A stretch of DNA of 57,661 bases from Candidatus Amesbacteria bacterium (GCA_963736875.1 CAVTQH010000004.1:253899-311559); one strand, 5' to 3'. Positions 3,258-57,661 are shown, counted from the stretch's first letter. The notes: generated from the sequence alone by a model not told the origin. A program made the numbers and translations.

Positions 3258-3342
3258 CCTAAGCCGCAATATATGATTAATAACTTGATTGTGCAAGTGC
3301 TAACTCCTAACTTTTTTTGCCGACCTATAGTATAATAATCCC

Positions 3343-11557: not shown

Positions 11558-12187
11558 ATGGACATTGACACGATAAAGAAGCTGTACTACAGAGAAAAAT
11601 TAGGTTCACGGGAAATCGCCACAAGGCTAAATAAAACAGTTTGGCAAATTCTCCGTTTTATGAAAAAACACCATCTCAAATGCAGAACTACCGCAGAAAC
11701 CAATAAATTTAAATTTAACAGAACTCCCCTCTCTTATAATAAAAAGGTTCATATGAACGCTCAGGAAAAACAATTATTTGAAAACGGTTTAATGCTGTAT
11801 TGGGCAGAAGGATGTAACCAAACTAATAAAGTCGTGGATATGTCAAATTCTAATCCTAAAATGGTAAAAATATTTCTAAATCTATTAACAAATGTTTATC
11901 AGGTGGATCAAAAACGTATTAGAGTGCTTCTGTATTGCTATCAAAATCAGGATATTAATAATCTCAGAAAATTCTGGTCAAATTTTTTAGACATCCCCCT
12001 GTCCCAGTTCATTAAACCGTATATCAGAAAGGACTTTGATCTCAATAAAAATACAAAAATGCCATATGGCTTGGCACACATTCGCTACGCAGATACGAGA
12101 TTACTGGCTCAAATATTCAAAGATATTGATATAATTTCAGGTAAACTTTGCCGGGATGGTGGAGTGGACAATCACACGAGTCTGTAA
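11558..12187 (+). CDS. HTH + LAGLIDADG-like endonuclease-family protein
   Basis: N-terminal HTH-like segment (SREIATRLNKTVWQILRFMKK), GLMLYWAEG helix and SNSNPKMVKIF; 3' end overlaps tRNA-Tyr. Confidence 0.7.
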   Translation: MDIDTIKKLYYREKLGSREIATRLNKTVWQILRFMKKHHLKCRTTAETNKFKFNRTPLSYNKKVHMNAQEKQLFENGLMLYWAEGCNQTNKVVDMSNSNPKMVKIFLNLLTNVYQVDQKRIRVLLYCYQNQDINNLRKFWSNFLDIPLSQFIKPYIRKDFDLNKNTKMPYGLAHIRYADTRLLAQIFKDIDIISGKLCRDGGVDNHTSL

Positions 12188-12232
12188 AACTCGCGCCTTA
12201 TGGCTACCCAGGTTCGAATCCTGGTCCCGGCA
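12150..12232 (+). tRNA. tRNA-Tyr(GTA)
   Basis: Acceptor GCCGGGA/TCCCGGC, anticodon arm CGAGT-CTGTAAA-ACTCG, long variable arm, TTCGAAT T-loop. Confidence 0.95.
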
Positions 12233-12253
12233 CAAATCTGCTACAATTACCCT

Positions 12254-12607
12254 ATGGCTTTTAAATTCCAGTCCCATGTTGTCTATGAACAGCTAAGCCT
12301 TTTTACTAAAGAAATCTTCGTTCTAACCGGCCGTCTTCCCAATTATGAAAGCAATGGTTTGATCCAGCAAATCAGAAACTTAGGGAGCGGTCTCCTTCAG
12401 GATTTTGCCCAGGGATATATCCGTACCGAGCATTCGGATCCCAAAGTCGCTTTGGATAAATGCATCATTTCCGTCGCCAAAATCGCTTCCTTAATAGATC
12501 TGAGTTGTCAGCTGGGGTATATTGATCACCCCACCCACACCAAACATATTTTATCCTGTGACGAGATTACCAAGCGCTTGTACGAAACGCAAAAATCCCA
12601 CAAGTAA
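12254..12607 (+). CDS. Four-helix-bundle protein (23S rRNA IVS/bAvd-like family)
   Basis: LPNYESNGLIQQIRNLG...FAQGY...LSCQLGYI pattern; TGCTACAAT 7 nt before ATG 12254. Confidence 0.75.
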   Translation: MAFKFQSHVVYEQLSLFTKEIFVLTGRLPNYESNGLIQQIRNLGSGLLQDFAQGYIRTEHSDPKVALDKCIISVAKIASLIDLSCQLGYIDHPTHTKHILSCDEITKRLYETQKSHK

Positions 12608-21412: not shown

Positions 21413-22490
21413 TCAATACATTCCGGTTTTATCTTTTGCCTTCTTAATAAATTTTCCGAACTTCCGGTCTTTAGCTCTTCTTTCCACCTCATTCATTTTG
21501 TAGAATTCAGTTTCTTTTTGTAATTTTTTGTAATTCAGATATTTATCTTTATCCATTGTCCCTGTCTCCACCGCTTCCAAAATCGCACAGTCAGGTTCGT
21601 TTGTATGAGTACAGTCTGAATATCTGCAATTCCGGGATAGTAAACCTACTTCATCAAACACATTTTCTATACCCGTATCCAAATCTCCCATACCCACCTC
21701 TCTTGTACCCGGATTATCAATAACTATCCCCCCGTTTTTCAAAAAATACATCTCTCTCACAGAAGTTGTATGTTTTCCTCTGCCCGTAGTTTCGCTTAAT
21801 CCCCGCTGTTTTAATGTCATTTTTCCCAAGTAATTTATTTATAAGCGTTGATTTTCCCACCCCGGAAGAACCCAAAAAACAATATGTCTTACCTTTGGAA
21901 ATATACTTTTCCAGTTCATCCAAACCCGTTTCCGTGACAGTACTTGTCAGAAGAATATAAACATCCCCGAACCTTTCTTTAATCCCGGTTATCTTGATGT
22001 CTAATTCAGCCTCGGAAATTAAATCAGTTTTATTAATAATTATCACCGGCTTAATTCCTCCGTCTTTGGCTAATACCAAATATCTCTCAAAACGATTCAA
22101 ACTGTAATCTCTATCCGGTGACCCCACAATAAATGCCGTGTCTATGTTAGTCGCTATTAGTTGATTTTCATCCTTATTACTGTACTTCTTTGAAAGTACC
22201 GTCTTTCTGGGTAACACTTGACGAATAACTGCTTTTCCTCCGGATAATTCGTTTATCACTACAAAGTCCCCCACCGCCGGATAATCTTCTCTTTTTACCG
22301 CCAAAAACTGCTGTTTACCGGTAATTTTGGCTAAATATTCTCCATCCACCCCTCTTACTTTGTACGCTTCCCGGTATTCAGCCACCACCCTGGCTATCTC
22401 ATGTCCGGTTAAATCTGACTTTCTTAGTCCTATCTTATAAAACCCGTCAAAACCTAAATCCTCCAGAGTGCTTGTTTGAGTTTCATTCAT
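21413..22490 (-). CDS. rsgA: Ribosome small-subunit GTPase RsgA, one-base frameshift near 21800
   Basis: PAVGDFV, QLIATNID, NKTD, GSSGVGKST. Removing one base gives ...SETTGRGKHTT..IDNPGTRE..CRYSDCTHTNEPDCAI. Confidence 0.9.
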
Positions 22491-25365: not shown

Positions 25366-26943
25366 TTACCTTCCGTAGTTGTTGGCCCAGATCGTGTAGT
25401 CCAGATCATCGACTCTGCGGTCGCCGTTAAAATCCCCCTGTCTTGGTCCGGTGGCATTGGTTATTCCGTAGTTATTCGCCCAGATGGTGTAGTCCAGATC
25501 ATCGACTCTTCCGTCCCCGTTTGTATCTCCGCGCATTGGGGTTTGTGTAGGAATACTTGTAGGAATAACACTGGGAATAGATGTCAGAACCAGAGTTGGT
25601 ATTGTTGTTGGAGCTACTGTGGGAGCAATAACAGTTACATTAAGGCAGGAATTAGGCCCGGTACAAGCATAAACCAAACCTCCGATGCCGCCAAAACCAG
25701 CCGGACGGCATTCAGCCACTCCATCGTTCCAGGCTCTGCAGCAGACCGAATATGTTCCAATAGCCGGAGGGGTCCATGATGTACTTATTACGGCATTTGG
25801 CGGTGTAATGTCCTGGTATGTAATGCGGTTAACGGTTCCGTTGAAATAATTTATTTCTCCGCTTAATGCACTACCCGGAGAATATACGCTTGCGCTGTAT
25901 GTGCCGGAACCGCCCATAATAAGATTAGTAGGGCCGGTAACATTACTGCAGTTGGGCTGAATCGGTGCTTGTGTTGGTATAGGAGTGGGAAATGAAAGTT
26001 GGTATCTGCGGACGCCAATGCTGGAATTAAATCCCCAAAAAGTAGGATAAGGACCTCCGGTGTTACCGGCATAATATACACGCATTTCATTATTCTGGAT
26101 ATAAGCATGAGGACTCCACATCAGTGATCCATCCCATCCGCTGCCGTTACTTTGAGCCAGCTTGACCTCCCCTGAGAAATTTATCCCGTCAGTTGATGTC
26201 GATAGGTACATTACGTAGGGAGCATCATTTACGTTGCCGGGATTATATGAATATACATAATAATATATGCCGTTGGTATATGTGACCCTTCCTGCCTGAA
26301 CCGAGCGGGTGTTGGGGAGATTAACAAATTCACCGAATCTGTGTCCGTCCGTACTTTCGCTTCGGTATAAACCGCCGCCTCCGGCGATATACAGAATATA
26401 TTTATTATTTAAAAATATCGGCGAGGGTGTTTCATAATAACCTGGTATGGAAGGAGTCTCAATTTCCCCTAATTTGGTCCAATTTACACCCGGAGAAGAT
26501 GCAGTTGCGTGCATAAGAAATAAAGTCATAAAGCTATTACGGTTAGCAGTGACATAATACATATGCCATATTCCGTTATTGTCTATTAAAACACCCGGAC
26601 TGCATGACAGATCATCTTTCGCGGTGCTGTCTGTTCCTTCCACTACTATCATGTCGTTGGACTGCGGAGTTGTCCATCCGGATAAACCATCCGTCCAGCT
26701 TTCACGCCTATAAACTTTGTCTCTCCAGAAATCGTTAATCGGTACACTTTTACAGTAATACATTAACCAGCTTCCCCAGCCTGGTTGATGCATAATATAA
26801 GGAGAATACTGGGAATTGTAAATTCCGATGGGACCGACAAGTTCCGATTTTGATATTTCGGTTATCTGGATTTGGGCATATACACGAGGGATTCCCAAGA
26901 AAATAAACGCAATAATGAATAATATACGAAATATTACTTTCAT
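25366..26943 (-). CDS. Secreted beta-propeller glycosidase-like protein with C-terminal dockerin
   Basis: Signal peptide, repeated blades (SPGV, ETPS, MWSPH; STDG repeats) resembling GH43/32/130 folds, PT linker, dockerin. Confidence 0.7.
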   Translation of the reverse strand: MKVIFRILFIIAFIFLGIPRVYAQIQITEISKSELVGPIGIYNSQYSPYIMHQPGWGSWLMYYCKSVPINDFWRDKVYRRESWTDGLSGWTTPQSNDMIVVEGTDSTAKDDLSCSPGVLIDNNGIWHMYYVTANRNSFMTLFLMHATASSPGVNWTKLGEIETPSIPGYYETPSPIFLNNKYILYIAGGGGLYRSESTDGHRFGEFVNLPNTRSVQAGRVTYTNGIYYYVYSYNPGNVNDAPYVMYLSTSTDGINFSGEVKLAQSNGSGWDGSLMWSPHAYIQNNEMRVYYAGNTGGPYPTFWGFNSSIGVRRYQLSFPTPIPTQAPIQPNCSNVTGPTNLIMGGSGTYSASVYSPGSALSGEINYFNGTVNRITYQDITPPNAVISTSWTPPAIGTYSVCCRAWNDGVAECRPAGFGGIGGLVYACTGPNSCLNVTVIAPTVAPTTIPTLVLTSIPSVIPTSIPTQTPMRGDTNGDGRVDDLDYTIWANNYGITNATGPRQGDFNGDRRVDDLDYTIWANNYGR

Positions 26944-27027: not shown

Positions 27028-29866
27028 TTATTTACCATAATTGTTTGCCCAGATGGTGTAGTCCAGGTCATCTACTCTGTGATCATTGTTAAAATCCCCC
27101 TGTCTTGGTCCGGTGGCATTGGTTATTCCGTAATTATTCGCCCAGATGGTGTAGTCCAGGTCATCCACATGCCTGTCCCCGTTGGCATCTCCGGGTATGG
27201 AGGGTATTGGTGTCGGAGTCGGAGCGGGGGTAGTGGTAGTTGTAAGAGTAGGTTGAGGTGTCGGAGCAGGAGTTGATGATCCGTTTGATACAGCTTCGAT
27301 GGTTGTAACTAAATTATTGATATAAAAAAGATCCCCGATGGCTGTCGCCGGAACATCCAGGTATTTGGCCAGTTCTTCCCGCGAAGATTTTTGAATATAT
27401 GCTTTAGCGTTAAACATTGCCTCATAATCATATAAAGGCTGTATTGACCCCTCCGCATAAGTAGCACCAAAACGAGAGACAAACCAGTAAGGGGCTATCC
27501 AACTATATTCATTAATTGCTGCAGATGTTTTACCTGGCAGCGTTTTGGGATAGATAATCCCCCAGCTCGGGAATCATGAGCATAAAGTTGGAAGCAACGG
27601 ACATGACATGGGTATAATCATTGGCAGTATCGCCGGGATTACCGACATCTTTGGTAAAACCGGCAGCCCGGGCAGCCAGCTGATTGTTAAGCGTGGTTTG
27701 GGCCCAATTAGCTTCGGAAGTATTGCCCGCCATTCTGGCTAATTCCAGATAGCCTTTGGTACCGGCAATAGCGGCATTAAACTGGAAAGGGAAAGGAAAA
27801 GAAGCAGATGAACTGGGCCGGCCACCCAAAGCACTGAAAATCGTCTGTGCCTGGGATGGAAACACTTTCGCATACTGCCACATTCCGTAATCCCTGTAGT
27901 AGTTGTAGACCATCCCTGTATCCCGCGGTCCGAACGAACCCATCGCATTTAAAACATCCTGGGGAAGCTGAAATGGTTCTCTGGAAGTACCCGTATTCCA
28001 ACCGTTATGTTCATATTCAATCGGAGAATGGTTGGTGTATTCACTTTGGAGGTAGGTTCTTAATTTGGTCTGGGTCGCAACCGGGAGGTGAAAATATGCC
28101 CGACCCAAGACTGCCAATAATTCGGCGGTATTATGAAAATTATCCATAAAAGCTTCTCCAAAATTCCGGGGCATACCTCCGTCAGAATTACCGGAAATGC
28201 TATACGCCGGTTTCAGATGTCCGGCATTAATCATTTTATTGACCTCCCTGTCCAGACGGCTAATCAAATCGTTGACATTCACCCCCGGATTTGTGGGAGC
28301 GGTATTAACCGTGACGCGCGGGGTAACCAGACCCGTGCTACTGCCGGAACCAAAAGCTAAGACAGCGTTACTCCGGTGAAGATATAAATGACCCTGGTAG
28401 GGAACTATGGGATTATTGTCACCATGTCCCCCGTAGACTCCGTTAAAAGTCCCATAGAGCTTGTTGAGGCCGGATTCGGCTTGACCCCAATACATCTGGT
28501 CGTAATTCGGAGCCAGGGAGTCTAAATTATATGACCATAGATATCCCCCTCCGGTGCTGTCGACGGTAAACCAATCTGCATCCCTGTCACAGCAAAGTAC
28601 CTGATAGATCACTTTGCCGCCTGAAGAAATAGCCATGGGTTCGTCACTTGCATTCATACTTCCGGGATTACATAATCCGGTTCCGCACCTTGGAACCGTA
28701 ATTGTATTCGTACCGATAATCCAGCCGCTTGCACCACCCCTTGTCCCGAAAATCGCTCCCTTATCTGTCCAAAATGTATTGGTCTGATAGATAATATTAT
28801 CAATGCCGTTGACTAAGGGTGGATAGCGGGAACCTGCCCGGGTGCCGTACCAGGCTATGGGTGCGTAATACCCGTTACCGTAGATATATTCGGTACCGTT
28901 CGCGGCATTTAAAACGAAATAAGTACGGCGGTAGGGCATACTTTTAAGATAATCGGCAAGATTTGTCACATCCATTCTTAACCCGTTTCTGGGACCAATG
29001 TCTCCATTCGGTGAAGCGGATGTATAAAAAAAGTCTTCGGCATCAAGATTTTGGAGATCCCAATTTCCCGGTACAGATGGGCCGACCGTCCGATATGGTG
29101 TCGTGCCGACAAACACCACCTTATCCTGATAAACTACCGGCCACCAATTACGGAAACCCAAACCGGGCAGCAGATTAGATTTCCATACCAAAGCTCCGGA
29201 TACAGCGTTCAGCGCGTAACCATGGCCATCGTTGGAAGCAAAATACAGGGTTTGATTATTGGTCGATATAGCAGCCGAAAAAGGAATCGGCCCGTCAGTT
29301 TGATAACGCCATGCCAGTTGTCCTTTTTGAGCATGATCATTTGAGTAAATTGCATAAAAATACCCGTCTCTGTTCCCCAGATAAACCATATTATTAATCA
29401 CCAACGGGTTTGTGTCATAGCCGGCTCCGGCTCCGTCGTAAGACCACAGTTTATTCCCGTTTGTAATATCAAGGGCATACAACTTATGGTCAAACCCGCC
29501 CACATATGCTACCCCGTTATAGATGGTAGGTGAATTTCCCAGAGGCATATCAGTGGGAAAAATCCATTTGGTAGCGCCATTGCTTGGATTCAGAGCAATT
29601 AACCCTTTGGCTGTTGAGATAAACAGAGTGCTGTTGGCAGCTATTATCTGTATATATGGGGCTATATATGGGTCGATCTGCCTATACCATAATATCCCTC
29701 CGCCATGAACCTCTTCAGGAGTCCAGGAAGTCCGCTGCTGATTGGCCCCTGCCATCGGCCAAGTGTTTTCTGTTTGAGCCGAAACACTCCCGACCCAAAA
29801 ACACAACGTTATCCCGGTAATTAATATCCCTAATCCGCATGCAACTATTCCCTTCCTGTATCTCAT
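27028..29866 (-). CDS. PQQ/BamB-like beta-propeller protein with C-terminal dockerin, one-base frameshift near 27545 (~945 aa)
   Basis: WPMAGANQQRTS and LYALD..NG..LWSY repeats. The shifted frame LPGKTSAAINEYSWIAPYWF...EAMFNAKAY runs into ORF 27028-27417. AGGAGG SD upstream. Confidence 0.8.
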
Positions 29867-30879: not shown

Positions 30880-32280
30880 ATGGATCCGCAGGTTACTGTC
30901 CCGGAAACCCCGCCGCCGCAAAGCCCGACCCCTCCGGTCTCCTCAACTCCTCCTCCTTCCAAATCCCGTCTGCCGTTAATAATCATCCTGGGTTTATTGT
31001 TTTTTGCTGTTTCCGTATCAGGAGGAATTTTTTGGTGGAGCAGATCCCGCCCCCAACCCCCGTCTCCGGCTGATCAGGCACTGACTCCTTCTCCTTCACC
31101 TGAAATATTTCGCCTTCAGGCCGGCGTCCAATATCTCTCCGGAACTGCCTGGAAGCTTGTGGACGGCCGGAAAACCGAAATCAGGGAAAAGGATATTTTG
31201 TCTGAAAATGATGTGATATCAACCGATCCCCAATCCCGTCTGGTGCTGGCTTTGGATGACGGATCAATCGTCCGCCTGGATGAAAACACCACTCTGGCCT
31301 TAAGTGAACTGAAACCCGAAAAAATCAGCTTAAATAACCAAACGGGCACGGTCTTTGCCCGGGTTCAGAAAGACCCTCTGCATAAATTTCTGATCCTGGC
31401 CAAAAACATCACCGTGGAATCTTCCGGCACTGCTTTCCTGGTTGAAAATACGGACGAGGTCAAAGTCCTGGTCTATGAAAGTGCGGTCCGGATTTCTACT
31501 CCGAGCGGTCAACCGGCTGAAGTTAAAAACCAACAGCAATGGTCGGAGAGTCAGACCGCACCGAAAAAAATCGATACCAAGAAGCTGGCCAGCCGGGAAT
31601 TTGCCGAGTGGAGTCTGAAAGCAGAAAACGTCGCTCCCTCTCCCGTGGTTACCGAAACACCCGCCAAAAAATCTGAACCTGCAAGTGGTATAACTTTAAC
31701 CGGCAAGATTGCCGACAATGGCATCCTTTTGGAATGGAATATTTCGGGCATCGATACCCCCAACGGGGTTAAGGTAGTCAAATCGGATATTACCAATCCC
31801 GTTTATCCCGGAAGTGAGTTTGTATACCTGTCAGACCCCGCTGTCCGTTCATACACCTGGACTATTAAAGACGGCCGTCAGTGGCATTTCCGGGTCTGCC
31901 GGTATACCGGCAATGTCTGCGGGGTTTACTCAAATGATATCAAGGTTACTGCCCCTGCAGGCGGCAAAACCTCTGAGCCGGGTCAGGGCCAAGTCACCGG
32001 CATCAGCCTGACCGCTGTGAAAGGTGATTCCGGAAAAGCCGTACTTGAATGGTCCGTTACCGGTACTTCCTCTCTGGGTTTTAAGATTGTCTGGTCTGGA
32101 AATTCCGATCCCACTTACCCCACCCGGGAAGGTGACCAGTTCCATTATCTTTCAGACCCTTCCGTCCGCCGGGACGAAATTACCGGCCTGGAAACCGGTA
32201 AAACCTATTATTTCCGTGTCTGTGAATATTTGGGCGGAAGCTGCGGTACCTACTCCAATCAGGTTTCCCTCCCTCTGTAA
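30880..32280 (+). CDS. TM-anchored FecR-domain protein with two fibronectin-III-like repeats
   Basis: DVISTDPQSRLVLALDDGSIVRLDENT (FecR); two repeats LEW..G..K.V.S...P.YP...YLSDP.VR...FRVC.Y.G..CG.YSN. Confidence 0.78.
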   Translation: MDPQVTVPETPPPQSPTPPVSSTPPPSKSRLPLIIILGLLFFAVSVSGGIFWWSRSRPQPPSPADQALTPSPSPEIFRLQAGVQYLSGTAWKLVDGRKTEIREKDILSENDVISTDPQSRLVLALDDGSIVRLDENTTLALSELKPEKISLNNQTGTVFARVQKDPLHKFLILAKNITVESSGTAFLVENTDEVKVLVYESAVRISTPSGQPAEVKNQQQWSESQTAPKKIDTKKLASREFAEWSLKAENVAPSPVVTETPAKKSEPASGITLTGKIADNGILLEWNISGIDTPNGVKVVKSDITNPVYPGSEFVYLSDPAVRSYTWTIKDGRQWHFRVCRYTGNVCGVYSNDIKVTAPAGGKTSEPGQGQVTGISLTAVKGDSGKAVLEWSVTGTSSLGFKIVWSGNSDPTYPTREGDQFHYLSDPSVRRDEITGLETGKTYYFRVCEYLGGSCGTYSNQVSLPL

Positions 32281-34703: not shown

Positions 34704-35306
34704 ATGCCTGAAAAAAACTTTTTCAAACAACTTTCTCTGCTGACTTTTACTCTCTTGCTTTTAATTTCCGCAATCGGATTAGCTTCCCGGATATCCCCGG
34801 AAAAAAGCCGCTTAAATCTTACAGGACGTGCTTTCACTGAACCTACAGATAATACCGGTTCCTACATAATACCCCACAGCCCCCAGCAACTTGTGATTGA
34901 ACACCAGTCATCTGCCCTGTTGCACGCAGTTCCGATATCCGGTAATAATTTCGTCATTTCTTTTGATTATTACCGCGACGTATTCCAAATCACTTTGTAT
35001 CCTCCTTTCGAAACATCTAAAGCAAATTTCTTTTCTTATCTGCAACAAAACGGCTATAGCCAACTACCGAAAGACATGTTTGAATATCTGGTCAACCCTA
35101 CCGTCCCTTCAACCCCTACCCCCATTCCGGTAGAAAAACCCGGGGATGCTAACGGGGACGGGAAAGTCGACGATCTGGACTATGCAATTTGGGCGAATAA
35201 CTACGGTATAACTAATACCACCGGGCTAATGCAGGGAGATTTCAACAATGATCACAGAGTCGATGACCTGGACTACACAATCTGGGCAAACAACTACGGA
35301 AAGTAA
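34704..35306 (+). CDS. Membrane-anchored protein with C-terminal dockerin
   Basis: N-terminal TM, PT linker, PGDANGDGKVDDLDYAIWANNYG...DFNNDHRVDDLDYTIWANNYGK. Confidence 0.82.
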   Translation: MPEKNFFKQLSLLTFTLLLLISAIGLASRISPEKSRLNLTGRAFTEPTDNTGSYIIPHSPQQLVIEHQSSALLHAVPISGNNFVISFDYYRDVFQITLYPPFETSKANFFSYLQQNGYSQLPKDMFEYLVNPTVPSTPTPIPVEKPGDANGDGKVDDLDYAIWANNYGITNTTGLMQGDFNNDHRVDDLDYTIWANNYGK

Positions 35307-49983: not shown

Positions 49984-50166
49984 ATGAACGTTATCACCTA
50001 TCTCAAAGAGACGGTTTCTGAGCTTAAGCTGGTCCGCTGGCCCACCCGTCAGGAAACTATCAATTTGACGCTGATCGTCATCGCCATTTCCGTCTTTGTG
50101 GGAGCCTATGTCGGCGGTCTCGATTTTGTTTTTACCAATATTCTTAAACTCGTATCATCCAAATAA
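49984..50166 (+). CDS. secE: Preprotein translocase subunit SecE
   Basis: YLKETVSELKLVRWPTRQET plus one TM; precedes nusG. Confidence 0.95.
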   Translation: MNVITYLKETVSELKLVRWPTRQETINLTLIVIAISVFVGAYVGGLDFVFTNILKLVSSK

Positions 50167-50167
50167 T

Positions 50168-50803
50168 ATGCCCGATACTACAACCCCATCCCCCGCCCCC
50201 GAATCCATTACCGAGCGCGGTTTGGGATCCAAAGTCATCCCGGGTCACATGATCATCAGCACCAATGATGAACTGTCGGCCAAAGCTCACTGGTACGTAG
50301 TCCACACCTATAGCGGCCATGAAGCCCGCGTGGCAGAAACCCTGCGCCAGAGAGTGGCTACCCTCGGTCAAACCGACAAAGTTTTCGAGGTATTGATCCC
50401 CACCCAGGACAAAATCCAAATCCGTCACGGCAAAAAATCCTCGGTCAAGGAAAAAATCTTCCCCGGTTATCTCCTGGTCAAAATGCTTCTGGATGACGAT
50501 TCCTGGCTGGTGGTTCGGACCACCGCCGGTGTTACCGGATTCGTGGGTGTTGGTTCCAAACCTACCCCCCTCTCAACTCCGGAAGTGGAAGCAATTATGC
50601 AGTTTGCCCAGATCGGAGCCCCCAAATACAAAGCCAACTTCAGTGTCGGAGAAGCGGTAAAAATTACCGACGGTCCGTTTGCCGACTTTTTGGGTTCAAT
50701 CGAAAGTATTGATGAAGATGCCGGCAAGCTCAGGGTTCTTGTCTCCATTTTCGGCCGCGAAACCCCCGTGGAACTCGATTTTTTACAGGTTAAAAAGATA
50801 TAA
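50168..50803 (+). CDS. nusG: Transcription factor NusG
   Basis: WYVVHTYSGHE, FPGYLLVKM, GVTGFVG, KOW domain GEAVKITDGPFADF...IFGRETPVEL. Confidence 0.96.
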   Translation: MPDTTTPSPAPESITERGLGSKVIPGHMIISTNDELSAKAHWYVVHTYSGHEARVAETLRQRVATLGQTDKVFEVLIPTQDKIQIRHGKKSSVKEKIFPGYLLVKMLLDDDSWLVVRTTAGVTGFVGVGSKPTPLSTPEVEAIMQFAQIGAPKYKANFSVGEAVKITDGPFADFLGSIESIDEDAGKLRVLVSIFGRETPVELDFLQVKKI

Positions 50804-50812
50804 TCCCATCCC

Positions 50813-51238
50813 ATGGCTCCCAAAAAAGTTAAAGTCATTCTCAAAATAAATTTACCGGCCGGAGAAGCTACACCCGCTCCTCCTGTCGGACCGGCTCTCG
50901 GCCAGCACGGCGTTCCGATCATGGACTTTGTCAAGCTTTACAATGACAAAACCAAGGACCTGAAAGGTGACATTATTCCGGCCGTTATCACAGTCTACGA
51001 GGACCGGTCATTTACATTTATCACCAAACTCCCTCCGGTTTCCGCTATGATCAAAAAAGTATTAGGTTTGAAAATCGCTTCCCAAAAACCCGGACGGGAA
51101 ACCGCCGGTACCATCACTTCAGATCAGGTCAGGGAAATTGCCGGTAAGAAACTGGGGGATTTAAATTGCACCACTCTGGAAGCCGCTGTTAAAACTGTTG
51201 AAGGCACCGCCCGCTCCATGGGTATTAAAGTCTCCTAG
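50813..51238 (+). CDS. rplK: 50S ribosomal protein L11
   Basis: AGEATPAPPVGPALGQHGV, YEDRSFTF, GTARSMGI. Confidence 0.97.
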   Translation: MAPKKVKVILKINLPAGEATPAPPVGPALGQHGVPIMDFVKLYNDKTKDLKGDIIPAVITVYEDRSFTFITKLPPVSAMIKKVLGLKIASQKPGRETAGTITSDQVREIAGKKLGDLNCTTLEAAVKTVEGTARSMGIKVS

Positions 51239-51319: not shown

Positions 51320-51661
51320 TTAATTCTTCCTAATTTCTCCCCTTCCTGACTCAATTTCTTCCATCCATCCGTTTACTGTTATCTTATCCAACATCCGTTT
51401 CACTTCCGCACGTATATATTGATCCGTCTGAACCAGAAGCACTCCCAAAGCCCTTCTCACTTGAAAATCCTGGGCGCATTTCAATTGCTCCTCTATTCCC
51501 ATACTTTCTTCGTTAAGCTCGGTAAGTTTCTTTAACCAATCCGAATATTCAGGCTTAATCCTGACAGATCCAGACATACTTCTCCATCTCTCCCTAATTT
51601 GCCGGGTTTTCCGGTCTTCATCCCAGCCTTGTGAAAAATTACCTCTTTTCTCCATTTTCAA
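51320..51661 (-). CDS. Hypothetical helical protein
   Basis: 113-aa charged ORF downstream of dprA. Confidence 0.5.
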   Translation of the reverse strand: MKMEKRGNFSQGWDEDRKTRQIRERWRSMSGSVRIKPEYSDWLKKLTELNEESMGIEEQLKCAQDFQVRRALGVLLVQTDQYIRAEVKRMLDKITVNGWMEEIESGRGEIRKN

Positions 51662-51722
51662 AGCTAATTATATACCATAACATTTGCTATACAATCTATA
51701 ACAATATATATATGTATGTTAC

Positions 51723-52403
51723 TTATAGATCTATTTCTGCCTTAACATCAGGATATAAACCCAGTTGTTGTTGCGGCACCCACATTTTCGCCCGGCCCGT
51801 GGCGATTAGCCAATTTGTACCCTCGGATACTTTACTGGTAACCGGACCGGGTACGGCCCAGACAGTCTTCCCTAGCTTTCTTCCCCATTCCGCGGTGATC
51901 AGTGATCCGCTTTTTATTGCTCCCTCAACCACATATATGTCTGAGGCCATGGCGGCCATGATTCTGTCTCTGTGGGGAAACATCCATAAAGTTGATCTCT
52001 CATTTAACCACTCAGAGACCACCGCCCCTCTATGAGCCACAATTTCGTTTACCAGCTCCTTCTCTTCGTTTCCTGCTCCATCCCAATTTATTCCCCATCC
52101 CAGAACCGCAATGGTTTTCCCTCCGTATTTAAGGCATTCCCGGTGTACATGCTGATCAACTCCGTACATCAATCCTGACACGATTATTTTCCCTGATGCG
52201 ACCAGGTTTGCTACCAGTTTTTTTGTAACAATTATTCCGTATTCGGTTATTCTTCTGGTTCCGACTACAGCCACACACGAAGAAAGTTCCTTTTGATCAA
52301 ACTGTCCCAGATAAAATAACCCTACAGGTTTCGAACTTAACTGTTTAAAGCTTATAGTGATGGTTTTTACTTCCCTGTCTATTTGTCCGTTTTTATCAAT
52401 CAT
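51723..52403 (-). CDS. dprA: DNA-processing protein DprA (Rossmann core only)
   Basis: VAVVGTRR, IVSGLMYGVD, VVSEW, FPHRDRIMAAMA, VVEGAIKSGSLITA, AVPG..SEGTNWLI. Confidence 0.9.
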   Translation of the reverse strand: MIDKNGQIDREVKTITISFKQLSSKPVGLFYLGQFDQKELSSCVAVVGTRRITEYGIIVTKKLVANLVASGKIIVSGLMYGVDQHVHRECLKYGGKTIAVLGWGINWDGAGNEEKELVNEIVAHRGAVVSEWLNERSTLWMFPHRDRIMAAMASDIYVVEGAIKSGSLITAEWGRKLGKTVWAVPGPVTSKVSEGTNWLIATGRAKMWVPQQQLGLYPDVKAEIDL

Positions 52404-52557
52404 CAGTATCTTTAACTTACCATAAATACGGCCAATATTTCATGTAGTAACAAAAATACTTTGATTATAAGACCGGTTTCCCTTTCTTAGTTCACAAATC
52501 AAACTCATTCACCCATTGACTTCGCTATGTAACAATATTAATAATATATACATCAGG

Positions 52558-52588
52558 TGTTAAAAACTTGTAAAAACTTGTAAAAACC
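52558..52588. promoter_or_regulatory. 10-bp tandem direct repeats (TAAAAACTTG x2 plus a partial copy), candidate operator
   Basis: TGT at 52558, 52569 and 52579, immediately upstream of the HTH_17 start at 52601. Confidence 0.6.
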
Positions 52589-52600
52589 AGCCTCCTGCCC

Positions 52601-55600
52601 ATGCCCAAAACATTTACCGTCAAGCAAGTAGCCGAAGCTCTCGGAGTATCCACTAACACTGTCTACAAGTACCTCGAAGAAGGAAAAATCCACGCCACCC
52701 GTCTTGAGACTGAAGGACGGTTTCATATCCCCGAATCGGAAATCATCAAACTCACGGGTACTCCCATCCATCCCCCGGCTTTACAAATAACCACCCCGCC
52801 GAGTCTTCCCAATTACCTCCCCCGCCTCCCCTAAGGAAAACCTATAACCGGAACATATCAGCTCTGGCTGTTTTCGTAATTGCGGTACTACTTTCCGTCC
52901 TCTCCCTCTACTCCCGGCAAATCAGTTATCTGGTCCGAAATTCCCTCGGCCAGCTTTCCGGCCTGAATCTGGAAAAAGAAATTTCGTCAGTTTACATAGA
53001 CCAGGATTTAATCCGCTCCGCCCGGGTAATTGGCGGAACCCTGGGAATAATACTTCTTCCGGATAATTCCTTCTCATCTTTCAAAGTTGAGGCCGGAAAG
53101 CTGGAAACGCGTTTTGATGTTACCCGATTCTCCGGACCTGTTACCGTCACTTACCCTTCAAAAGAACAGGTTTCCAAACCTATAGACTCAGATCAGGTTT
53201 CCCCCTTTGTTTTGAAAAACGGACAGCAGACCCTGGGAAAGGTTCTTGATGAAGCAGTATTCATGCTTCAGCTCAGAGACGGACGGATATTGGCCTTAAA
53301 GCTTTTGGATGGTCAAGTCCTGAATAATCAGGTCCGTGGCTACTTCAAAGCCCAAACCTTCAGCACCGGGTACTTTGTTTCAGGAGAAATTGACCCACAG
53401 AGTCAGCAGCTGACCCGTGTTTCTCTCCGGTCCGGAGCTTTGAAAATTCCCGATCCCCGGACCCTGATTACTTACCACGCTCTCAATTACCACTTCCCCG
53501 TTTCCAAACCGGACGGCAAAGTCCTGGGAATCAGTAATTCACCTTTTCCTGAATCAAACATTATTCTGGAAATTCCGGGCTTAAATTGGCCTGTACTTGT
53601 TTTCAACTCTGAATTGGAAACCTGGTCGTTTAAAAACCTGATTGACGAAACACAGCTTCCCCGACTGGTAACCACCTCTGATGTCATCAATTACTTCGAT
53701 CAGCAGATCAGTAAACTCCAAACCGTGTCGGTATCTCAAACCGAACTCACCAGTCTTACCAGTTTTTTGACCGTCACCCCTTCCGGCAACAATTACCAGC
53801 TCTCTCTAAACCTCCAAAATACCATCAATTCCGCCAGTGTCATCAATGGCTCCCTGACATCGGATGATTTGGGTGGTGGCAGTGTTAATTCCTCTCAAAT
53901 TGCCGATCATACAATAACAGACAGTGACATAAAGGGTGATACTATATCAACTGATCAGCTTACTTCCGATCTGACATTTTCCGCCGGTGATTTATTGGAT
54001 CTTTCAGCTATTAATCACTCTGACACCACATCACAGGGACTGCTTCTGCCCAACGTTTCCTCTGCTTCCCCGTCCTTACCCACTTCCGGAGAAGGTTACC
54101 TGGCTTACGACACCTCCGGGGATCAGGTGGTTTATTACGACGGTTCATCCTGGAATCAAATCGGGGGAACTACCACTTTATACACCGGAGTATTGGATAG
54201 CTCCGTAGCCTCATCAGTTTCCGGCCTGGAATTGATTGATACCAACCAGCTGTCTTTAATCCGGGGTTGCAGTGATACCCAGGTGCTTAAATGGGATGAG
54301 GCGGGAAAACTCTGGCAATGTGCGAATGATTCGGGTGTAGGTTCGGGAATATCTGCTATTGAAGAAAATAATTCTTCTGTTGTCACCTCTGCTGTTACGA
54401 TTGATTTTTCCGGTACTGACTTTGATGTAATTAATGCCGGAGGCGGTGAAGGAGATATCGCCATTGACTATACAAATTCCGGTATTACCAGAAATTCCCG
54501 AAACGAAAGCATTTCCGGTGCCTGGACCTTCTCCAGTGATATTTCCTTAAATAACGCCGGTGCTGAAGTAAAAATCCTGGAATCAGGCGGCACCCCCACT
54601 CTTTACGGCATCCTGGACGTCGACGACCTGTCAGGTTCCGATGCTACTTACCTCTTCTCCGGAGCGTCAGGCACGGTCCTCACTTCCGCCAATGCCGCCA
54701 CCGCTCTCTCCGGCTGGGATCAGAACAGCTCTGACGATCTGACGACGAGTAACTACACCGGGACTCTCGACTCCGTCTACGTCAACGTCGGGGAAAGTCC
54801 CACCGCCGGTGACATTTCCGGCTCCTTCACCGCCGGGCTGACCATAGGCGGCGACTCCGTGGCTCTGGGTACCGACACCACCAATAACTATGTCGCCACA
54901 GGCGCCTCCGGTAATGGTGTTTCCTTGTCCGGCGGCGGCAGTGAAGGCGCTACTCTAACAGCTGCTCTGGGAGTCCTGACCGCCAACTGGAACCAGACCG
55001 GTGCCTTTGATATTTCCTTAAATAACGCCGGTTCTGAAATTCAAATTCTGGAATCAGCCGGTGATACTTTCTTCGGTATCCTGGACGTGGGAGATTTGTC
55101 CGGCAGTAGTTCTACCTACCTCTTCTCCGGAGCGTCAGGCACGGTCCTCACTTCCGCCAATGCCGCCACCGCTCTCTCCGGCTGGGATCAGAACAGCTCT
55201 GACGATCTGACGACGAGTAACTACACCGGGACTCTCGACTCCGTCTACGTCAACGTCGGGGAAAGTCCCACCGCCGGTGACATTTCCGGCTCCTTCACCG
55301 CCGGGTTAACCATCGCCGGCGACTCCGTGGCTCTGGGCACCGACACCACCAACAACTACATCGCCGGAGCCACTGTCAACGGCGGACTGACCATGTCCGG
55401 TACCGAAGGCGGGACTCTGGGACTTCTCACTTCCTGCTCCCCCAATGAAATCCTCAAATGGAACGGTTCCGTCTGGGGTTGCAGCGCCGATGCCGACACC
55501 GGCGGCACCAACTACTGGCAGCTGGTCAATTCCGATACCGGCCTGGCCCCGGTCAACGCCGCCGTCTCCGATATCTTTGCCGGCGGGACGGCTACCGGTT

Positions 55601-57661
55601 CCGCCCGCTTCCAGGTGGAAGGCTTAACCGGCAATGTCACCGCCGCCGGCACTCTGACTTTGACCGCCGCTGCTGCCCAGATAAAGCTTCTGGAATCAGG
55701 CGGCACCCCGTCCCTTTACGGCATCCTGGACGTCGATGACCTCTCCGGTTCCGATGCTACTTACCTCTTCTCCGGAGCGTCAGGCACGGTCCTCACTTCC
55801 GCCAACGCCGCCACCGCTCTCTCCGGCTGGGATCAAAACAGCTCTGACGATTTGACCACCGGCAACTACACCACTACTTTGGACTCCGTCTACGTTAATA
55901 CCGGCGAGAGTCCCACGGCCGGCGACATTTCCGGCTCCTTCACCGCCGGGTTAACCATCGCCGGCGACTCCGTGGCTCTGGGCACCGACACCACCAACAA
56001 CTACATCGCCGGAGCCACTGTCAACGGCGGACTGACCATGTCCGGTACCGAAGGCGGGACTCTGGGACTTCTCACTTCCTGCTCCCCCAATGAAATCCTC
56101 AAATGGAACGGTTCCGTCTGGGGTTGCAGCGCCGATGCCGACACCGGCGGCACCAACTACTGGCAGCTGGTCAATTCCGATACCGGCCTGGCCCCGGTCA
56201 ACGCCGCCGTCTCCGATATCTTTGCCGGCGGGACGGCTACCGGTTCCGCCCGCTTCCAGGTGGAAGGCTTAACCGGCAATGTCACCGCCGCCGGCACTCT
56301 GACTTTGACCGCCGCTGCTGCCCAGATAAAGCTTCTGGAATCAGGCGGCACCCCGTCCCTTTACGGCATCCTGGACGTCGATGACCTCTCCGGTTCCGAT
56401 GCTACTTACCTCTTCTCCGGAGCGTCAGGCACGGTCCTCACTTCCGCCAATGCCGCCACCGCTCTCTCCGGCTGGGATCAGAACAGCTCTGACGATCTGA
56501 CCACGGGTAACTACACCAGGACTCTGGACTCCGTCTACGTCAACGTCGGCGAGAGTCCCACGGCCGGTGACATTTCCGGCTCCTTCACCGCCGGGTTGAC
56601 CATCGCCGGCGACTCCGTGGCTCTGGGCACCGACACCACCAACAACTACATCGCCGGAGCCACTGTCAACGGCGGACTGACCATGTCCGGTACCGAAGGC
56701 GGGACTCTGGGACTTCTCACTTCCTGCTCCCCCAATGAAATCCTCAAATGGAACGGTTCCGTCTGGGGTTGCAGCGCCGATGCCGACACCGGCGGCACCA
56801 ACTACTGGCAGCTGGTCAATTCCGATACCGGCCTGGCTCCGGTCAACGCCGCCGTCTCCGATCTCTTTGCCGGCGGGACGGCTACCGGTTCCGCCCGCTT
56901 CCAGGTGGAAGGCTTAACCGGCAATGTCACCGCCGCCGGCACTCTGACTTTGACCGCCGCCGCTGCCCAGATAAAGCTTCTGGAATCAGGCGGCACCCCG
57001 TCTCTTTACGGCATCCTGGACGTCGATGACCTGTCCGGTTCCGATGCTACTTACCTCTTCTCCGGAGCGTCAGGCACGGTCCTCACTTCCGCCAATGCCG
57101 CCACCGCTCTTTCCGGCTGGGATCAGAACAGCTGCTGACGATCTGACCACCGGTAACTACACCACTACTCTGGACTCCGTCTACGTCAACGTCGGGGAGA
57201 GTCCCACGGCCGGCGACATTTCCGGCTCCTTCACCGCCGGGCTGACCATCGGCGGCGACTCCGTGGCTTTGGGCACCGACACCACCAACAACTACATCGC
57301 CGGAGCCACTGCCAACGGCGGACTGACCATGTCCGGTACCGAAGGCGGGACTCTGGGACTTCTGACTTCCTGCTCCCCCAATGAAATCCTCAAATGGAAC
57401 GGTTCCGCCTGGGGCTGCAGCGCCGATGCCGACACCGGCGGCACCAACTACTGGCAGCTGGTCAATTCCGATACCGGCCTGGCTCCGGTCAACGCCGCCG
57501 TCTCCGATCTCTTTGCCGGCGGGACGGCTACCGGTTCCGCCCGCTTCCAGGTGGAAGGCTTAACCGGCAATGTCACCGCCGCCGGCACTCTGACTTTGAC
57601 CGCCGCCGCTGCCCAGATAAAGCTTCTGGAATCAGGCGGCGCCCCGTCTCTTTACGGCATC
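52601..57661 (+). CDS. Predicted HTH_17-TM-giant repeat surface protein (frameshifts near 52770 and 57134; runs off window end)
   Basis: HTH_17 (FTVKQVAEALGVSTNTVYKYLEEGKIHA). The frame of ORF 53212 is open from 52708 and contains a TM (ALAVFVIAVLLSVLSLY) but no ATG upstream of it. An extra G at 57134 relative to the other repeat copies creates the TGA. Confidence 0.72.
55117..57661 (+). repeat. Near-identical 645-bp (215-aa) coding tandem repeat, ~4 copies, plus a shorter related unit from ~54580
   Basis: TACCTCTTCTCCGGAGCGTCAGGCACGGTCC recurs at 54649, 55117, 55762, 56407 and 57052; shadow ORFs recur at 55445, 56090, 56735 and 57381. Confidence 0.95.

What the first reader, a model, noticed from the sequence alone, without database searches (positions are those of the whole stretch)
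52601..57661. DNA-binding HTH apparently fused, via one TM helix, to a giant extracellular repeat fibre
The HTH_17 ORF (52601-52834) overlaps a frame that is open from 52708 to 57138. That frame encodes a Pro-rich linker, a basic patch, a TM helix (ALAVFVIAVLLSVLSLY) and then more than 1400 aa of fibre-like sequence, with no ATG ahead of the TM. A one-base correction near the CCCCC run at ~52770 yields a type II membrane protein with a cytoplasmic Xis/BldC-like HTH and a huge external domain. The protein could physically couple host contact to its own promoter (phased repeats at 52558-52588), or tether the chromosome at the attachment pole. If the shift is real, -1 slippage would produce both free HTH and the fusion. 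This is the best candidate for an undescribed system, together with the HTH-PIN-WxL-like locus.
Basis: partly seen in the sequence, partly recalled or inferred. Interest (0 to 1): 0.82.

Follow-up and report, generated by a model that had tools for sequence, protein, structure and literature searches.

The report
Membrane-tethered HTH fused to giant fibre
A small Xis/BldC-type DNA-binding domain is joined through a proline-rich linker and one membrane helix to a giant repeat-rich surface fibre: relatives encode this as one reading frame, whereas the copy in this window is broken by a small indel that is probably an assembly error or a very recent mutation.

Summary
The HTH_17 ORF (52601-52834) is followed by a frame open from 52714 to 57138. 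That frame has no ATG/GTG/TTG for 166 codons, one predicted TM helix (52855-52911) and more than 1,400 aa of fibre.

The fusion is real in relatives. An 85%-identical contig (L002/P0043) carries HTH-linker-TM-N-domain in one ORF. Two other metagenome contigs (X3, X4) are 2 nt shorter in the linker, which puts the two frames in register.

The offset lies at about 52802-52810, not at the C5 run. The window also has a frameshifted rsgA and an extra G in the last fibre repeat, so an assembly indel is likely. I found no frameshift signals.

The nearest HTH relatives are N-termini of HTH_17-multiTM-dCache proteins. In three of three loci where the downstream gene is visible, these sit immediately upstream of stand-alone homologues of this fibre. 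The window's clade therefore appears to have lost the sensor part and fused the HTH to the fibre's own anchor.

Direct repeats (TTGTAA-N4-TTGTAA, 10-bp phase) precede every HTH gene of the clade examined. They fit BldC/Xis-like head-to-tail binding.

Function is inferred. I rate this a new variant of membrane-tethered regulators.

The parts
52516..52545 (+). Sigma-70-like promoter candidate (TTGACT-18-AATAAT) upstream of the repeats
   Evidence: Consensus scan, 10 of 12 matches. This is a prediction only.
52558..52588 (+). Operator-like direct repeats, AA[CG]TTGTAA[AG] with a 10-bp phase (TAAAAACTTG x2.7), 13 nt upstream of the HTH ATG
   Evidence: TRF finds period 10 with 100% matches. TTGTAA-N4-TTGTAA is expected 0.01 times per window. 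The same tandem motif lies upstream of the HTH genes in L002, L003, L006 and L007, with one-mismatch versions in L005. It recurs at the HTH-Cache/giant-gene junction in L005, L006 and L007.
52601..52756 (+). HTH_17 (Xis/BldC/MerR-like winged HTH) domain, residues 1-52
   Evidence: Pfam HTH_17 E 1.3e-10. PDB sequence hit to Pukovnik Xis 4j2n. The AF2 model has beta-H-H-beta-beta-H topology. Foldseek top hits are Xis 4j2n, BldC 6ama/6amk (target TM 0.8-0.9) and RacA. dN/dS is 0.076 against L002.
52757..52834 (+). Pro-rich linker read in the HTH frame. Its last 11 codons (SLPNYLPRLP*) are out of register with relatives. Stop TAA at 52832-52834.
   Evidence: The AF2 model is disordered after residue 52.
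52802..52810 (+). Site of the frame offset. The window has AGTCTTCCC where relative X3 has TCTCCCC (2 nt fewer) and L002 has a 5-nt gap.
   Evidence: X3 aligns without gaps over 52597-52801, then has a loose end TCTCCCCAATTACC.... The L002 alignment has a single 5-nt gap opposite 52802-52806. X4 has 118 letters where the window has 120 between 52740 and 52861.
52804..52854 (+). Linker continuation and basic juxtamembrane patch in the fibre frame (SSQLPPPPPLRKTYNRN). KTYNR matches the KTC[KE]N N-terminus of stand-alone giant homologues.
   Evidence: Translation. P0043 has ...PPPAKTYNRF.... L005 giant starts MLKTCKN, P0056 starts MAKTCEN, and P0151 has KTCKN.
52855..52911 (+). Single TM helix, ISALAVFVIAVLLSVLSLY
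   Evidence: It is the only Kyte-Doolittle peak (2.59) in the conceptual fusion. K+R count is 3 in the N-side flank and 2 in the C-side flank. AF2 models a helix there.
52912..53817 (+). Conserved beta-rich N-domain of the fibre family
   Evidence: Exhaustive phmmer gives 386 hits. N-domain homologues P0008, P0013, P0023, P0034, P0040 and others score E 1e-25 to 1e-53. AF2 pLDDT exceeds 90 for about 53014-53496. No PDB fold match, best E 0.11. No Pfam family.
53818..54300 (+). Widely shared module (IADxxIT-type short repeats plus LLLPNVSSASPxxPxSGEGYxAYDTxxxxxxxYxGSxW)
   Evidence: This is the best-matched stretch in most of the 386 hits, often many times per giant protein.
54606..57661 (+). 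Tandem 645-nt (215-aa) fibre repeats with a Cys-loop motif (CSPNEILKWNGSVWGC). They run off the window end.
   Evidence: Copies at 54606, 55074, 55719, 56364 and 57010, with 88-97% identity. Translations.
57134..57134 (+). Extra G that breaks the frame in the last repeat copy (stop at 57136-57138). The repeats continue in the next frame.
   Evidence: AACAGCT-CTGACG in three copies against AACAGCTGCTGACG here. Copy spacing is 646 against 645.

Best explanation
Natively this is one gene. It encodes a bitopic, N-in membrane protein with five parts in order:
1. a cytoplasmic Xis/BldC-type HTH_17 domain of about 52 aa;
2. a disordered Pro-rich linker;
3. a short basic patch;
4. one TM helix;
5. a giant extracytoplasmic fibre, made of a conserved beta-rich N-domain, a shared module and at least five 215-aa repeats. 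At least about 1,690 aa lie within the window, and the gene runs off its end.

Origin: the gene arose in this clade from a conserved two-gene unit, [HTH_17-multiTM-dCache sensor] followed by [TM-anchored giant fibre]. The membrane and Cache part was lost, and the HTH and linker were joined to the first codons of the fibre gene.

The break in the window: the indel at about 52802-52810 is most likely an assembly or sequencing error, or at most a very recent lesion.

Inferred mechanism: the HTH binds head-to-tail to the 10-bp-phased TTGTAA direct repeats between the predicted promoter and its own start codon. The protein would then work as a membrane-tethered autoregulator, ToxR/CadC-like in topology and BldC/Xis-like in DNA recognition, whose activity can be coupled to the state of the fibre outside the cell.

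Shown: the architecture, its presence in relatives, the synteny, conservation of the repeats, and purifying selection.
Inferred: topology, DNA binding, and any coupling to the fibre.
For: Fusion in relatives:
- P0043 on L002 (MEGAHIT contig, 85% DNA identity) is a continuous ORF of HTH-linker-KTYNR-TM-N-domain.
- The X3 contig reads S P Q L P P P P P P in the HTH frame, across the position of the window's stop. That peptide matches the window's other-frame SSQLPPPPPL.
- X4 is a net 2 nt shorter between anchors on either side of the linker, which puts the two frames in register.

No independent start:
- There are 166 start-less open codons, the extreme outlier in the window.
- P0043 also has no start codon before the TM helix.

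Both parts are under purifying selection between the window and L002: dN/dS 0.076 for the HTH and 0.21 for the TM and N-domain, at dS of about 1.

Other indels in the same window:
- rsgA is split at a T5/A5 run at 21820-21824. Pfam RsgA_GTPase positions 1-142 and 129-173 fall in two different frames.
- There is an extra G at 57134.

Origin from a two-gene unit:
- The closest HTHs are the N-termini of HTH_17+multiTM+dCache proteins P0001-P0005, at 62-77% identity over the locally aligned HTH segment.
- In L003, L005 and L006 these genes are immediately followed by giant genes whose N-domains match the window fibre (30-36% identity, E 3e-54 to 4e-73).
- The window's KTYNR aligns with the KTC[KE]N N-terminus of stand-alone giants.

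Operator:
- TTGTAA-N4-TTGTAA occurs upstream of the HTH gene in the window, L002, L003, L006 and L007, and in one-mismatch form in L005. It is expected 0.01 times per 57 kb.
- BldC protects tracts one helical turn apart and binds direct repeats head-to-tail (PMC5859096).

Fold: Foldseek top hits are Xis, BldC, MerR N-domains and RacA.
Against: - The window sequence as given has the stop, and no reads of the source sample could be examined, so an error is not proven. The offset is not in a homopolymer.
- L002 is only 675 nt. After about position 572 it returns to its own upstream region, so it shows only the first ~165 aa of the fusion.
- X3 and X4 are 258 and 284 nt. X4's 118 intervening letters were not visible, so a stop within them cannot be excluded.
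- No long contig shows HTH plus a full fibre in one ORF.
- The charge bias across the TM helix is weak (+3 against +2).
- DNA binding, the operator role and any signalling are untested.
- The repeats partly overlap coding sequence in L005.
Confidence: 0.68

Rival explanations
1. The frameshift is real in this strain. A 2-nt insertion or 1-nt deletion in the linker has split the ancestral fusion. The cell then makes a free 77-aa BldC-like HTH, and the fibre is silent: a pseudogene in the making, or an 'off' variant of a variable surface protein.
For: The sequence as assembled has the stop. The offset is not in a homopolymer, which is less typical of simple base-calling error. The same gene carries a second frame break at 57134. 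Surface fibres are common targets of on/off variation (general knowledge).
Against: There are no in-frame stops anywhere in 4.4 kb plus 0.5 kb of fibre frame, so any lesion is very recent. The conserved housekeeping gene rsgA is also frameshifted in the same window, which points to assembly quality rather than selective decay. The C tracts are only 4-5 nt long, too short for classical slipped-strand phase variation. The relatives differ at 52802-52810, not in those tracts.
Confidence: 0.22
2. Programmed -1 ribosomal frameshifting yields both a free HTH and the HTH-fibre fusion. One conceivable mechanism is P-site tRNA-Pro slippage on C-CCC-TAA at 52828-52834.
For: A C4 run abuts the stop codon. 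A -1 slip there enters the fibre frame at CTA 52831. This is an inference only.
Against: There is no canonical X_XXY_YYZ heptamer in the HTH frame. There is no stable downstream structure: z 0.55, with 145 of 200 shuffles folding at least as well. Three relatives are simply in frame, so the shift is not a conserved feature.
Confidence: 0.04
3. There are two genes by design. The HTH is a separate small regulator, and the fibre initiates on its own at a non-canonical codon just before the TM helix (ATA 52855, CTG 52864 or ATT 52879).
For: Stand-alone homologues in other lineages do start at the equivalent position, M-x-KTC[KE]N-TM. Their HTH-bearing gene is separate.
Against: There is no ATG/GTG/TTG for 166 codons. 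The only purine-rich stretch (AAGGA, 52833-52837) is 17 nt from ATA, by my reading of the sequence. Close relatives have the HTH in frame and also lack any start.
Confidence: 0.04
4. The architecture is the same but the job is different. The tethered HTH is not a transcription factor. It would be either an architectural DNA anchor that holds its locus or the chromosome at the membrane under the fibre (RacA-like), or a protein-interaction module (as the RodZ HTH binds MreB).
For: RacA and Xis, both architectural proteins, are among the top structural matches. RodZ shares the HTH-TM-outside layout (my own knowledge). MreB is encoded in the window (2145-3296) and next to the L003 locus.
Against: The tandem motif occurs as a tandem only at the HTH gene in 57 kb, rather than dispersed as RacA-type sites would be. 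The only other TTGTAA-N4-TTGTAA hit, at 21518, is a T-rich match inside rsgA. The repeats always sit next to the start of the HTH gene and of the fibre gene, which suggests gene-specific control. The RodZ HTH is XRE-type, not HTH_17.
Confidence: 0.18

Closest known systems
ToxR/CadC-type membrane-integrated one-component regulators (PMC5430869, PMC6320335)
   Same: An N-terminal cytoplasmic DNA-binding domain, a flexible linker, a single TM helix and an extracytoplasmic C-terminal part in one polypeptide. Such proteins bind DNA while anchored in the membrane.
   Different: Their DNA-binding domain is the OmpR/PhoB-type winged helix, whereas here it is HTH_17. Their outer domain is a compact sensor of about 100-250 aa, not a fibre of more than 1,500 aa. 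No ToxS-like partner was seen here.
BldC and phage Xis (small HTH_17/MerR-like proteins; PMC5859096; PDB 6ama, 6amk, 4j2n)
   Same: The same Pfam family and the same predicted fold. They lack the MerR coiled coil and effector domain. Their known binding mode, head-to-tail on direct repeats about one helical turn apart, matches the 10-bp-phased repeats here.
   Different: BldC and Xis are free soluble proteins of 55-70 aa. Here the domain carries a linker, a TM helix and a giant ectodomain.
HTH_17-multiTM-dCache proteins P0001-P0005 (uncharacterised; for example GCA_000380825.1 AQYS01000016.1)
   Same: They have the closest HTH sequences (62-77% identity over the locally aligned HTH segment; 53-58% over all 77 aa), and the HTH is N-terminal to membrane segments. 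They carry the same TTGTAA direct repeats upstream. They are genetically coupled to a homologous giant fibre, encoded immediately downstream.
   Different: They have about 8-10 TM segments and an extracytoplasmic dCache sensor, and the fibre is a separate gene with its own anchor. In the window the Cache and multi-TM part is absent and the HTH is joined to the fibre's anchor.
Stand-alone giant N-anchored fibre proteins (P0013 5,838 aa; P0034 2,704 aa; P0040 3,812 aa; the L003, L005 and L006 giants)
   Same: A homologous N-domain and shared module, an N-terminal TM anchor, repeat-rich giant ectodomains, and a KTC[KE]N-type tail before the anchor in some members.
   Different: They begin with a cytoplasmic tail of only 10-45 aa, with no HTH.
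RodZ (my own knowledge)
   Same: A bitopic protein with a cytoplasmic N-terminal HTH, a basic juxtamembrane region, one TM helix and a Pro/Ser/Thr-rich outer part.
   Different: The RodZ HTH is XRE-type and binds MreB rather than DNA. Its periplasmic part is small.
RacA (PDB 5i44) and MYRF (PMC3742443), as functional analogies
   Same: RacA is a MerR-like winged HTH that anchors DNA at a cell pole. MYRF is a membrane-bound transcription factor that combines a DNA-binding domain with a phage-tailspike-derived domain and a TM helix.
   Different: RacA is tethered through DivIVA, not through its own TM helix. MYRF is eukaryotic, its fibre-like domain is on the same side of the membrane as the DNA-binding domain, and it acts by self-cleavage.

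Membership tests
HTH_17 / Xis-BldC-like MerR-type winged HTH (PF12728) | Match to the family profile above the curated cut-off | tested here: met
   41.8 bits against a cut-off of 27, E 1.3e-10, residues 5-50. PHROG excisionase families score E about 2e-7.
HTH_17 / Xis-BldC-like MerR-type winged HTH (PF12728) | Fold: HTH plus beta-hairpin wing plus a short C-terminal helix, without the MerR coiled coil or effector domain | tested here: met
   The AF2 model has beta-H-H-beta-beta-H topology and is disordered after residue 52. Foldseek top hits are Xis 4j2n (target TM 0.82) and BldC 6amk/6ama (target TM 0.8-0.9, rmsd 1.3-1.8), at probability 1.00. Model confidence is only moderate (pLDDT 69).
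HTH_17 / Xis-BldC-like MerR-type winged HTH (PF12728) | Cooperative head-to-tail binding to direct repeats | not testable with these tools
   Conserved 10-bp-phased direct repeats are present next to the gene. Binding itself needs EMSA or footprinting.
ToxR-like membrane-integrated one-component regulators | OmpR/PhoB-type (Trans_reg_C) winged-helix DNA-binding domain | tested here: not met
   The Pfam scan lists HTH_17, MerR and other HTH families but no Trans_reg_C among the 25 best of 32 families shown.
ToxR-like membrane-integrated one-component regulators | Bitopic layout: cytoplasmic DNA-binding domain, one TM helix, outer domain | tested here: met
   There is a single hydrophobic peak at residues 85-103 of the conceptual fusion, and the layout is continuous in P0043. 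Orientation is inferred from the N-anchored homologues and a weak positive-inside bias.
HTH_17-multiTM-dCache sensor family (P0001-P0005) | Extracytoplasmic dCache_1 domain between TM segments | tested here: not met
   There is no Cache hit in 52714-57135 at E up to 0.1, and only one TM helix.
HTH_17-multiTM-dCache sensor family (P0001-P0005) | Clade-specific HTH sequence (MxKTYTVKQVAEALGxSTNTVYKYLxEGKI...) | tested here: met
   53-58% identity over 77 aa and 62-77% over the locally aligned HTH segment. Identity to the window's other HTH_17 gene is only 23%.
Giant N-anchored fibre family (unnamed; P0013, P0034, P0040, L003/L005/L006 giants) | Homologous beta-rich N-domain directly after an N-terminal TM anchor, followed by the shared SGEGYxAYDT module | tested here: met
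   phmmer E 1e-25 to 1e-53 with co-linear alignments starting 5-30 residues after the homologues' N-termini. blastp E 3e-54 to 4e-73.
Programmed -1 ribosomal frameshift site | Slippery heptamer X_XXY_YYZ in the upstream frame | tested here: not met
   None in 52601-52831.
Programmed -1 ribosomal frameshift site | Stable stimulatory RNA structure just downstream, conserved in relatives | tested here: not met
   For 52820-52940, MFE is -19 kcal/mol against a shuffle mean of -20.5, z 0.55. The relatives are in frame.

The most novel reading that the evidence does not exclude
The HTH_17 module, the TTGTAA direct repeats and the giant fibre form a previously undescribed regulatory unit. The sampled loci come from groundwater and sediment metagenomes and look CPR-like, though I did not verify the taxonomy.

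In most members a membrane Cache sensor carries the HTH and controls the adjacent fibre gene. In the window's clade the HTH sits on the fibre itself. The state of the fibre (assembly, tension or contact with a host cell, or proteolytic shedding) would then directly set the activity or release of a BldC-like DNA binder. This would be a one-protein link from surface contact to transcription, or to tethering of the locus at the attachment site.
Probability: 0.2. Interest if true: 0.85.

Novelty: new variant of a known kind. Interest (0 to 1): 0.62.

Why it matters
The gene content of the window and the groundwater and sediment sources of the relatives suggest a CPR/Patescibacteria-like organism, although I did not verify the taxonomy. 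From my own knowledge, such organisms have few classical signalling systems and depend on surface contact with hosts. How they regulate their giant surface proteins is unknown.

This locus offers three things:
- a concrete, testable cis/trans pair: a 52-aa Xis/BldC-type HTH and a conserved TTGTAA-N4-TTGTAA direct-repeat element;
- a conserved genetic link between that HTH, a membrane sensor and a giant fibre;
- a natural fusion that places the DNA-binding domain and the fibre in one bitopic protein.

If the fusion is functional, it extends membrane-tethered transcription factors to a new DNA-binding family and to an ectodomain roughly ten times larger than any known sensor domain.

It is also a caution for annotation. 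The deposited gene call (1,308 aa from TTG 53212) lacks the membrane anchor and the HTH.

Tried and rejected
**Read-level check of the junction was not possible**
- No indexed run holds the window. Shares of sampled words were at most 0.10.
- X6-X8 laid nothing on the region.

**Searches for longer relatives found nothing**
- JGI metagenome contigs and GTDB genome contigs gave no hits, either by peptide patterns or by my own degenerate DNA pattern.

**Word-index protein searches missed the fibre family**
- They found only the HTH relatives.
- The exhaustive phmmer search was what recovered the fibre family and P0043.

**Exact look-ups** of the 77-aa HTH and of DprA found nothing on record.

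**Programmed frameshift rejected:** no heptamer and no RNA structure.

**Frameshift at the C5 run near 52772 rejected:** X3 aligns without gaps through 52801, and the HTH-frame peptide up to PP(52801) resembles that of P0043.

**The fibre remains uncharacterised**
- No Pfam family was found. The only hits are 10-residue fragments.
- No PDB sequence hit and no fold match for the confident N-domain.
- Only weak PHROG hits to families of unknown function.

**Single motif copy at 41439-41448 is coincidental:** it lies in the coding sequence (GKLVD) of a secreted 1170-aa protein.

**Other suspect ORF pairs** showed no split domains, so rsgA is the only other frameshift found.

**No evidence links the M50 peptidase at 10529 to this gene.** It is 42 kb away.

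Full report
**1. The observation**

The ORF at 52601-52834 encodes 77 aa and is a clear HTH_17 domain: Pfam 41.8 bits against a cut-off of 27, E 1.3e-10.

A second frame is open from 52714 to 57138. Its first ATG/GTG/TTG is TTG 53212. That stretch of 166 start-less open codons is the extreme among the 47 ORFs of at least 150 aa in the window, where the median is 5.

The start-less stretch encodes SSQLPPPPPLRKTYNRN followed by ISALAVFVIAVLLSVLSLY. That hydrophobic segment is the only predicted TM helix in the conceptual fusion.

Downstream lie a 300-aa N-domain, a shared module and tandem 645-nt repeats that run off the window end. An extra G at 57134 breaks the frame in the last repeat copy, and the repeats then continue in the next frame. 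The description is therefore correct. The deposited gene call (P0006, 1,308 aa from TTG 53212) lacks any anchor or signal.

**2. Is the fusion real?**

Three independent relatives say yes.

- The exhaustive phmmer search with the TM and N-domain found P0043. Its sequence is MPKTYTVKQVAEALGVSTNTVYKYLEEGKISATRL...LTGTPISPSPQTVTVLPSELSPLPPPAKTYNRFVQVLVITLTAALLSVLSLYSRQIG.... It lies on a MEGAHIT contig, L002. At the DNA level L002 is 85% identical to the window, with a single 5-nt gap opposite 52802-52806.
- Logan contig X3 aligns without gaps over 52597-52801. It then reads TCTCCCCAATTACCTCCTCCGCCTCCCCCC, which has 2 nt fewer than the window and CC in place of the TAA. In the HTH frame this gives SPQLPPPPPP, matching the window's other-frame SSQLPPPPPL.
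- Logan contig X4 anchors at 52682-52740 and 52861-52966, with 118 letters between the anchors against 120 in the window. That difference again brings the two frames into register.

Both halves are under purifying selection between the window and L002: dN/dS 0.076 for the HTH and 0.21 for the TM and N-domain, at dS of about 1.

There are caveats. L002 covers only about 165 aa and then loops back to its own upstream region. X3 and X4 are short, and the middle of X4 was not visible.

**3. What is the break in the window?**

The offset lies at 52802-52810 (CCGCCG[AG]TCTTCCC), not at the C5 run at 52772-52776.

The window has at least one other frameshift, in a conserved gene. rsgA is split at a T5/A5 run at 21820-21824, and Pfam RsgA_GTPase positions 1-142 and 129-173 fall in two frames. 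With the extra G at 57134, that makes three indels in 57 kb. The contig also spans a 3-kb near-perfect repeat, so I consider a residual assembly indel the most likely cause.

A very recent real lesion cannot be excluded. No reads of the source could be reached.

Programmed frameshifting has no support. There is no slippery heptamer, no downstream RNA structure, and the relatives are in frame.

**4. Where did the fusion come from?**

The closest HTH sequences are the N-termini of 610-658-aa proteins with HTH_17, about 8-10 TM segments and a dCache_1 domain (P0001-P0005). The window's second HTH_17 gene (41689-41976) is only 23% identical.

In all three loci where the downstream gene is visible, the HTH-Cache gene is immediately followed by a giant gene:

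| Locus | Source | Downstream gene | Match to window N-domain |
|---|---|---|---|
| L003 | GCA_000380825.1 | >1,334 codons, 4-nt overlap with the HTH-Cache gene | 33% identity, E 3e-54 |
| L005 | Logan SRR22388033 | giant gene called at 2,617 aa; 1,999 codons within the locus | 30% identity, E 2e-59 |
| L006 | Logan SRR6490164 | 622 codons in the locus, which ends with the contig | 36% identity, E 4e-73 |

Each giant gene has its own N-terminal TM anchor.

More distant N-domain homologues all start with a short basic tail and a TM helix and have no HTH. Examples are P0013 (5,838 aa), P0034 and P0040. Some begin M-x-KTC[KE]N, and the window and P0043 have KTYNR at the same place just before the TM helix.

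The simplest history is a deletion. It removed the multi-TM and Cache part and the intergenic start, and so joined the HTH linker to the first codons of the fibre gene.

**5. A conserved cis element**

TTGTAA-N4-TTGTAA is expected 0.01 times per window. It occurs at these places:

- upstream of the HTH ATG in the window (52568), L002 (37), L003 (3911 and 3965; ATG 4001), L006 (2166; ATG 2217) and L007 (1877; ATG 1906);
- in one-mismatch form in L005 (882/902; ATG 945);
- again at the HTH-Cache/giant junction in L005 (2847/2857), L006 (three copies, inverted) and L007 (3750, inverted).

In the window the repeats lie between a predicted promoter (52516-52545) and the start codon.

BldC, the structural relative, binds direct repeats head-to-tail and protects tracts one helical turn apart (PMC5859096). 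The predicted HTH fold matches Xis 4j2n, BldC 6ama/6amk, MerR N-domains and RacA. The inference that the HTH binds these repeats and controls its own gene and the fibre gene is reasonable, but it is untested.

**6. The fibre**

The fibre has no Pfam family and no PDB sequence relative. Its N-domain is modelled with confidence (pLDDT above 90 for about 160 residues, all beta) but has no PDB fold match.

The shared module and the repeats recur in hundreds of giant proteins (386 hits, 114 below 1e-10). Cys-loop motifs and the N-anchored homologues argue for an extracytoplasmic location. This is an inference.

**7. Comparison and verdict**

In layout the protein works like ToxR/CadC. In DNA recognition it probably works like BldC/Xis. 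It is a member of neither functional class as defined: it has no Trans_reg_C domain and it is not a free small protein. It does belong to HTH_17 and to the unnamed giant-fibre family.

I found no description of HTH_17-TM architectures in the searched literature. I rate it a new variant of a known kind (membrane-tethered regulators), with a newly recognised conserved HTH-repeat-fibre unit behind it. Taxonomy (CPR-like) was not verified.

Noticed in passing
window 21413-22490 (- strand), indel at 21820-21824: rsgA (ribosome small-subunit GTPase) is split into two overlapping ORFs by one extra base in an A5 run (T5 on the + strand). With A4 it reads ...LLGKMTLKQRGLSETTGRGKHTT... This indicates indel errors in the assembly, or a real pseudogene.
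   Followed up: partly
window 57134: One extra G (AACAGCT[G]CTGACG) in the fifth fibre repeat creates a stop at 57136-57138. The repeat continues in the next frame to the window end, so the gene is longer than called.
   Followed up: yes
window 41689-42411; L005 62-781; L006 1311-1736; L007 1062-1767: A second HTH_17 gene (95 aa) and a 141-aa PIN-like gene form a pair that is orthologous to pairs lying divergently next to the HTH-Cache-giant operons in L005 and L007 (45% and 39% identity to the L005 pair); in L006 only the PIN gene is seen (24% identity). In the window the pair lies 10 kb upstream of the HTH-fibre gene. It may be a toxin-antitoxin-like pair with conserved linkage to the system.
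   Followed up: partly
L002 572-675 against L002 1-69 and window 52457-52545: The 675-nt relative contig leaves the fibre N-domain at about 572 and continues into the gene's own upstream region. Its last 17 nt equal its first 17 nt. This is either a misassembly or a truncated HTH-TM stub followed by a tandem second copy.
   Followed up: partly
N-termini of the L003, L005 and L006 giants and of P0052, P0056, P0065, P0066, P0121: Stand-alone fibre homologues share a G-[FIVL]-x-P-L motif at the start of the anchor helix, after a short basic leader (for example QAGFIPLVVLLVVAL). This is reminiscent of prepilin-type class III signals but lacks the Glu at position +5. The window's anchor lacks the motif.
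   Followed up: no
window 1-56000: GC skew is negative almost everywhere (about -0.1 to -0.27 in 2-kb windows), whichever strand the genes are on. The + strand is consistently C-rich.
   Followed up: no
window 49990-51238, then 51320-52403: secE-nusG-rplK is not followed by rplA. The next genes are a 113-aa ORF and dprA, both on the opposite strand.
   Followed up: no
window 25366-26943 and 34704-35306: Two proteins carry C-terminal dockerin type I domains (Pfam E 2e-6 and 6.5e-6). Nearby lie a PQQ beta-propeller protein (27530-29866) and a FecR-domain protein (30880-32280).
   Followed up: no
window 21518-21533: The only other TTGTAA-N4-TTGTAA match in the window (TTGTAATTTTTTGTAA) lies inside the rsgA coding region. 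It is T-rich and probably a chance match.
   Followed up: no
window 12150-12232 and 12200-12607: A tRNA (Rfam, 57 bits) overlaps the end of ORF 11558-12187 and the start of an ORF with a 23S rRNA-intervening-sequence-protein domain. Four tRNAs were found in all (11439, 12150, 18699, 20713).
   Followed up: no
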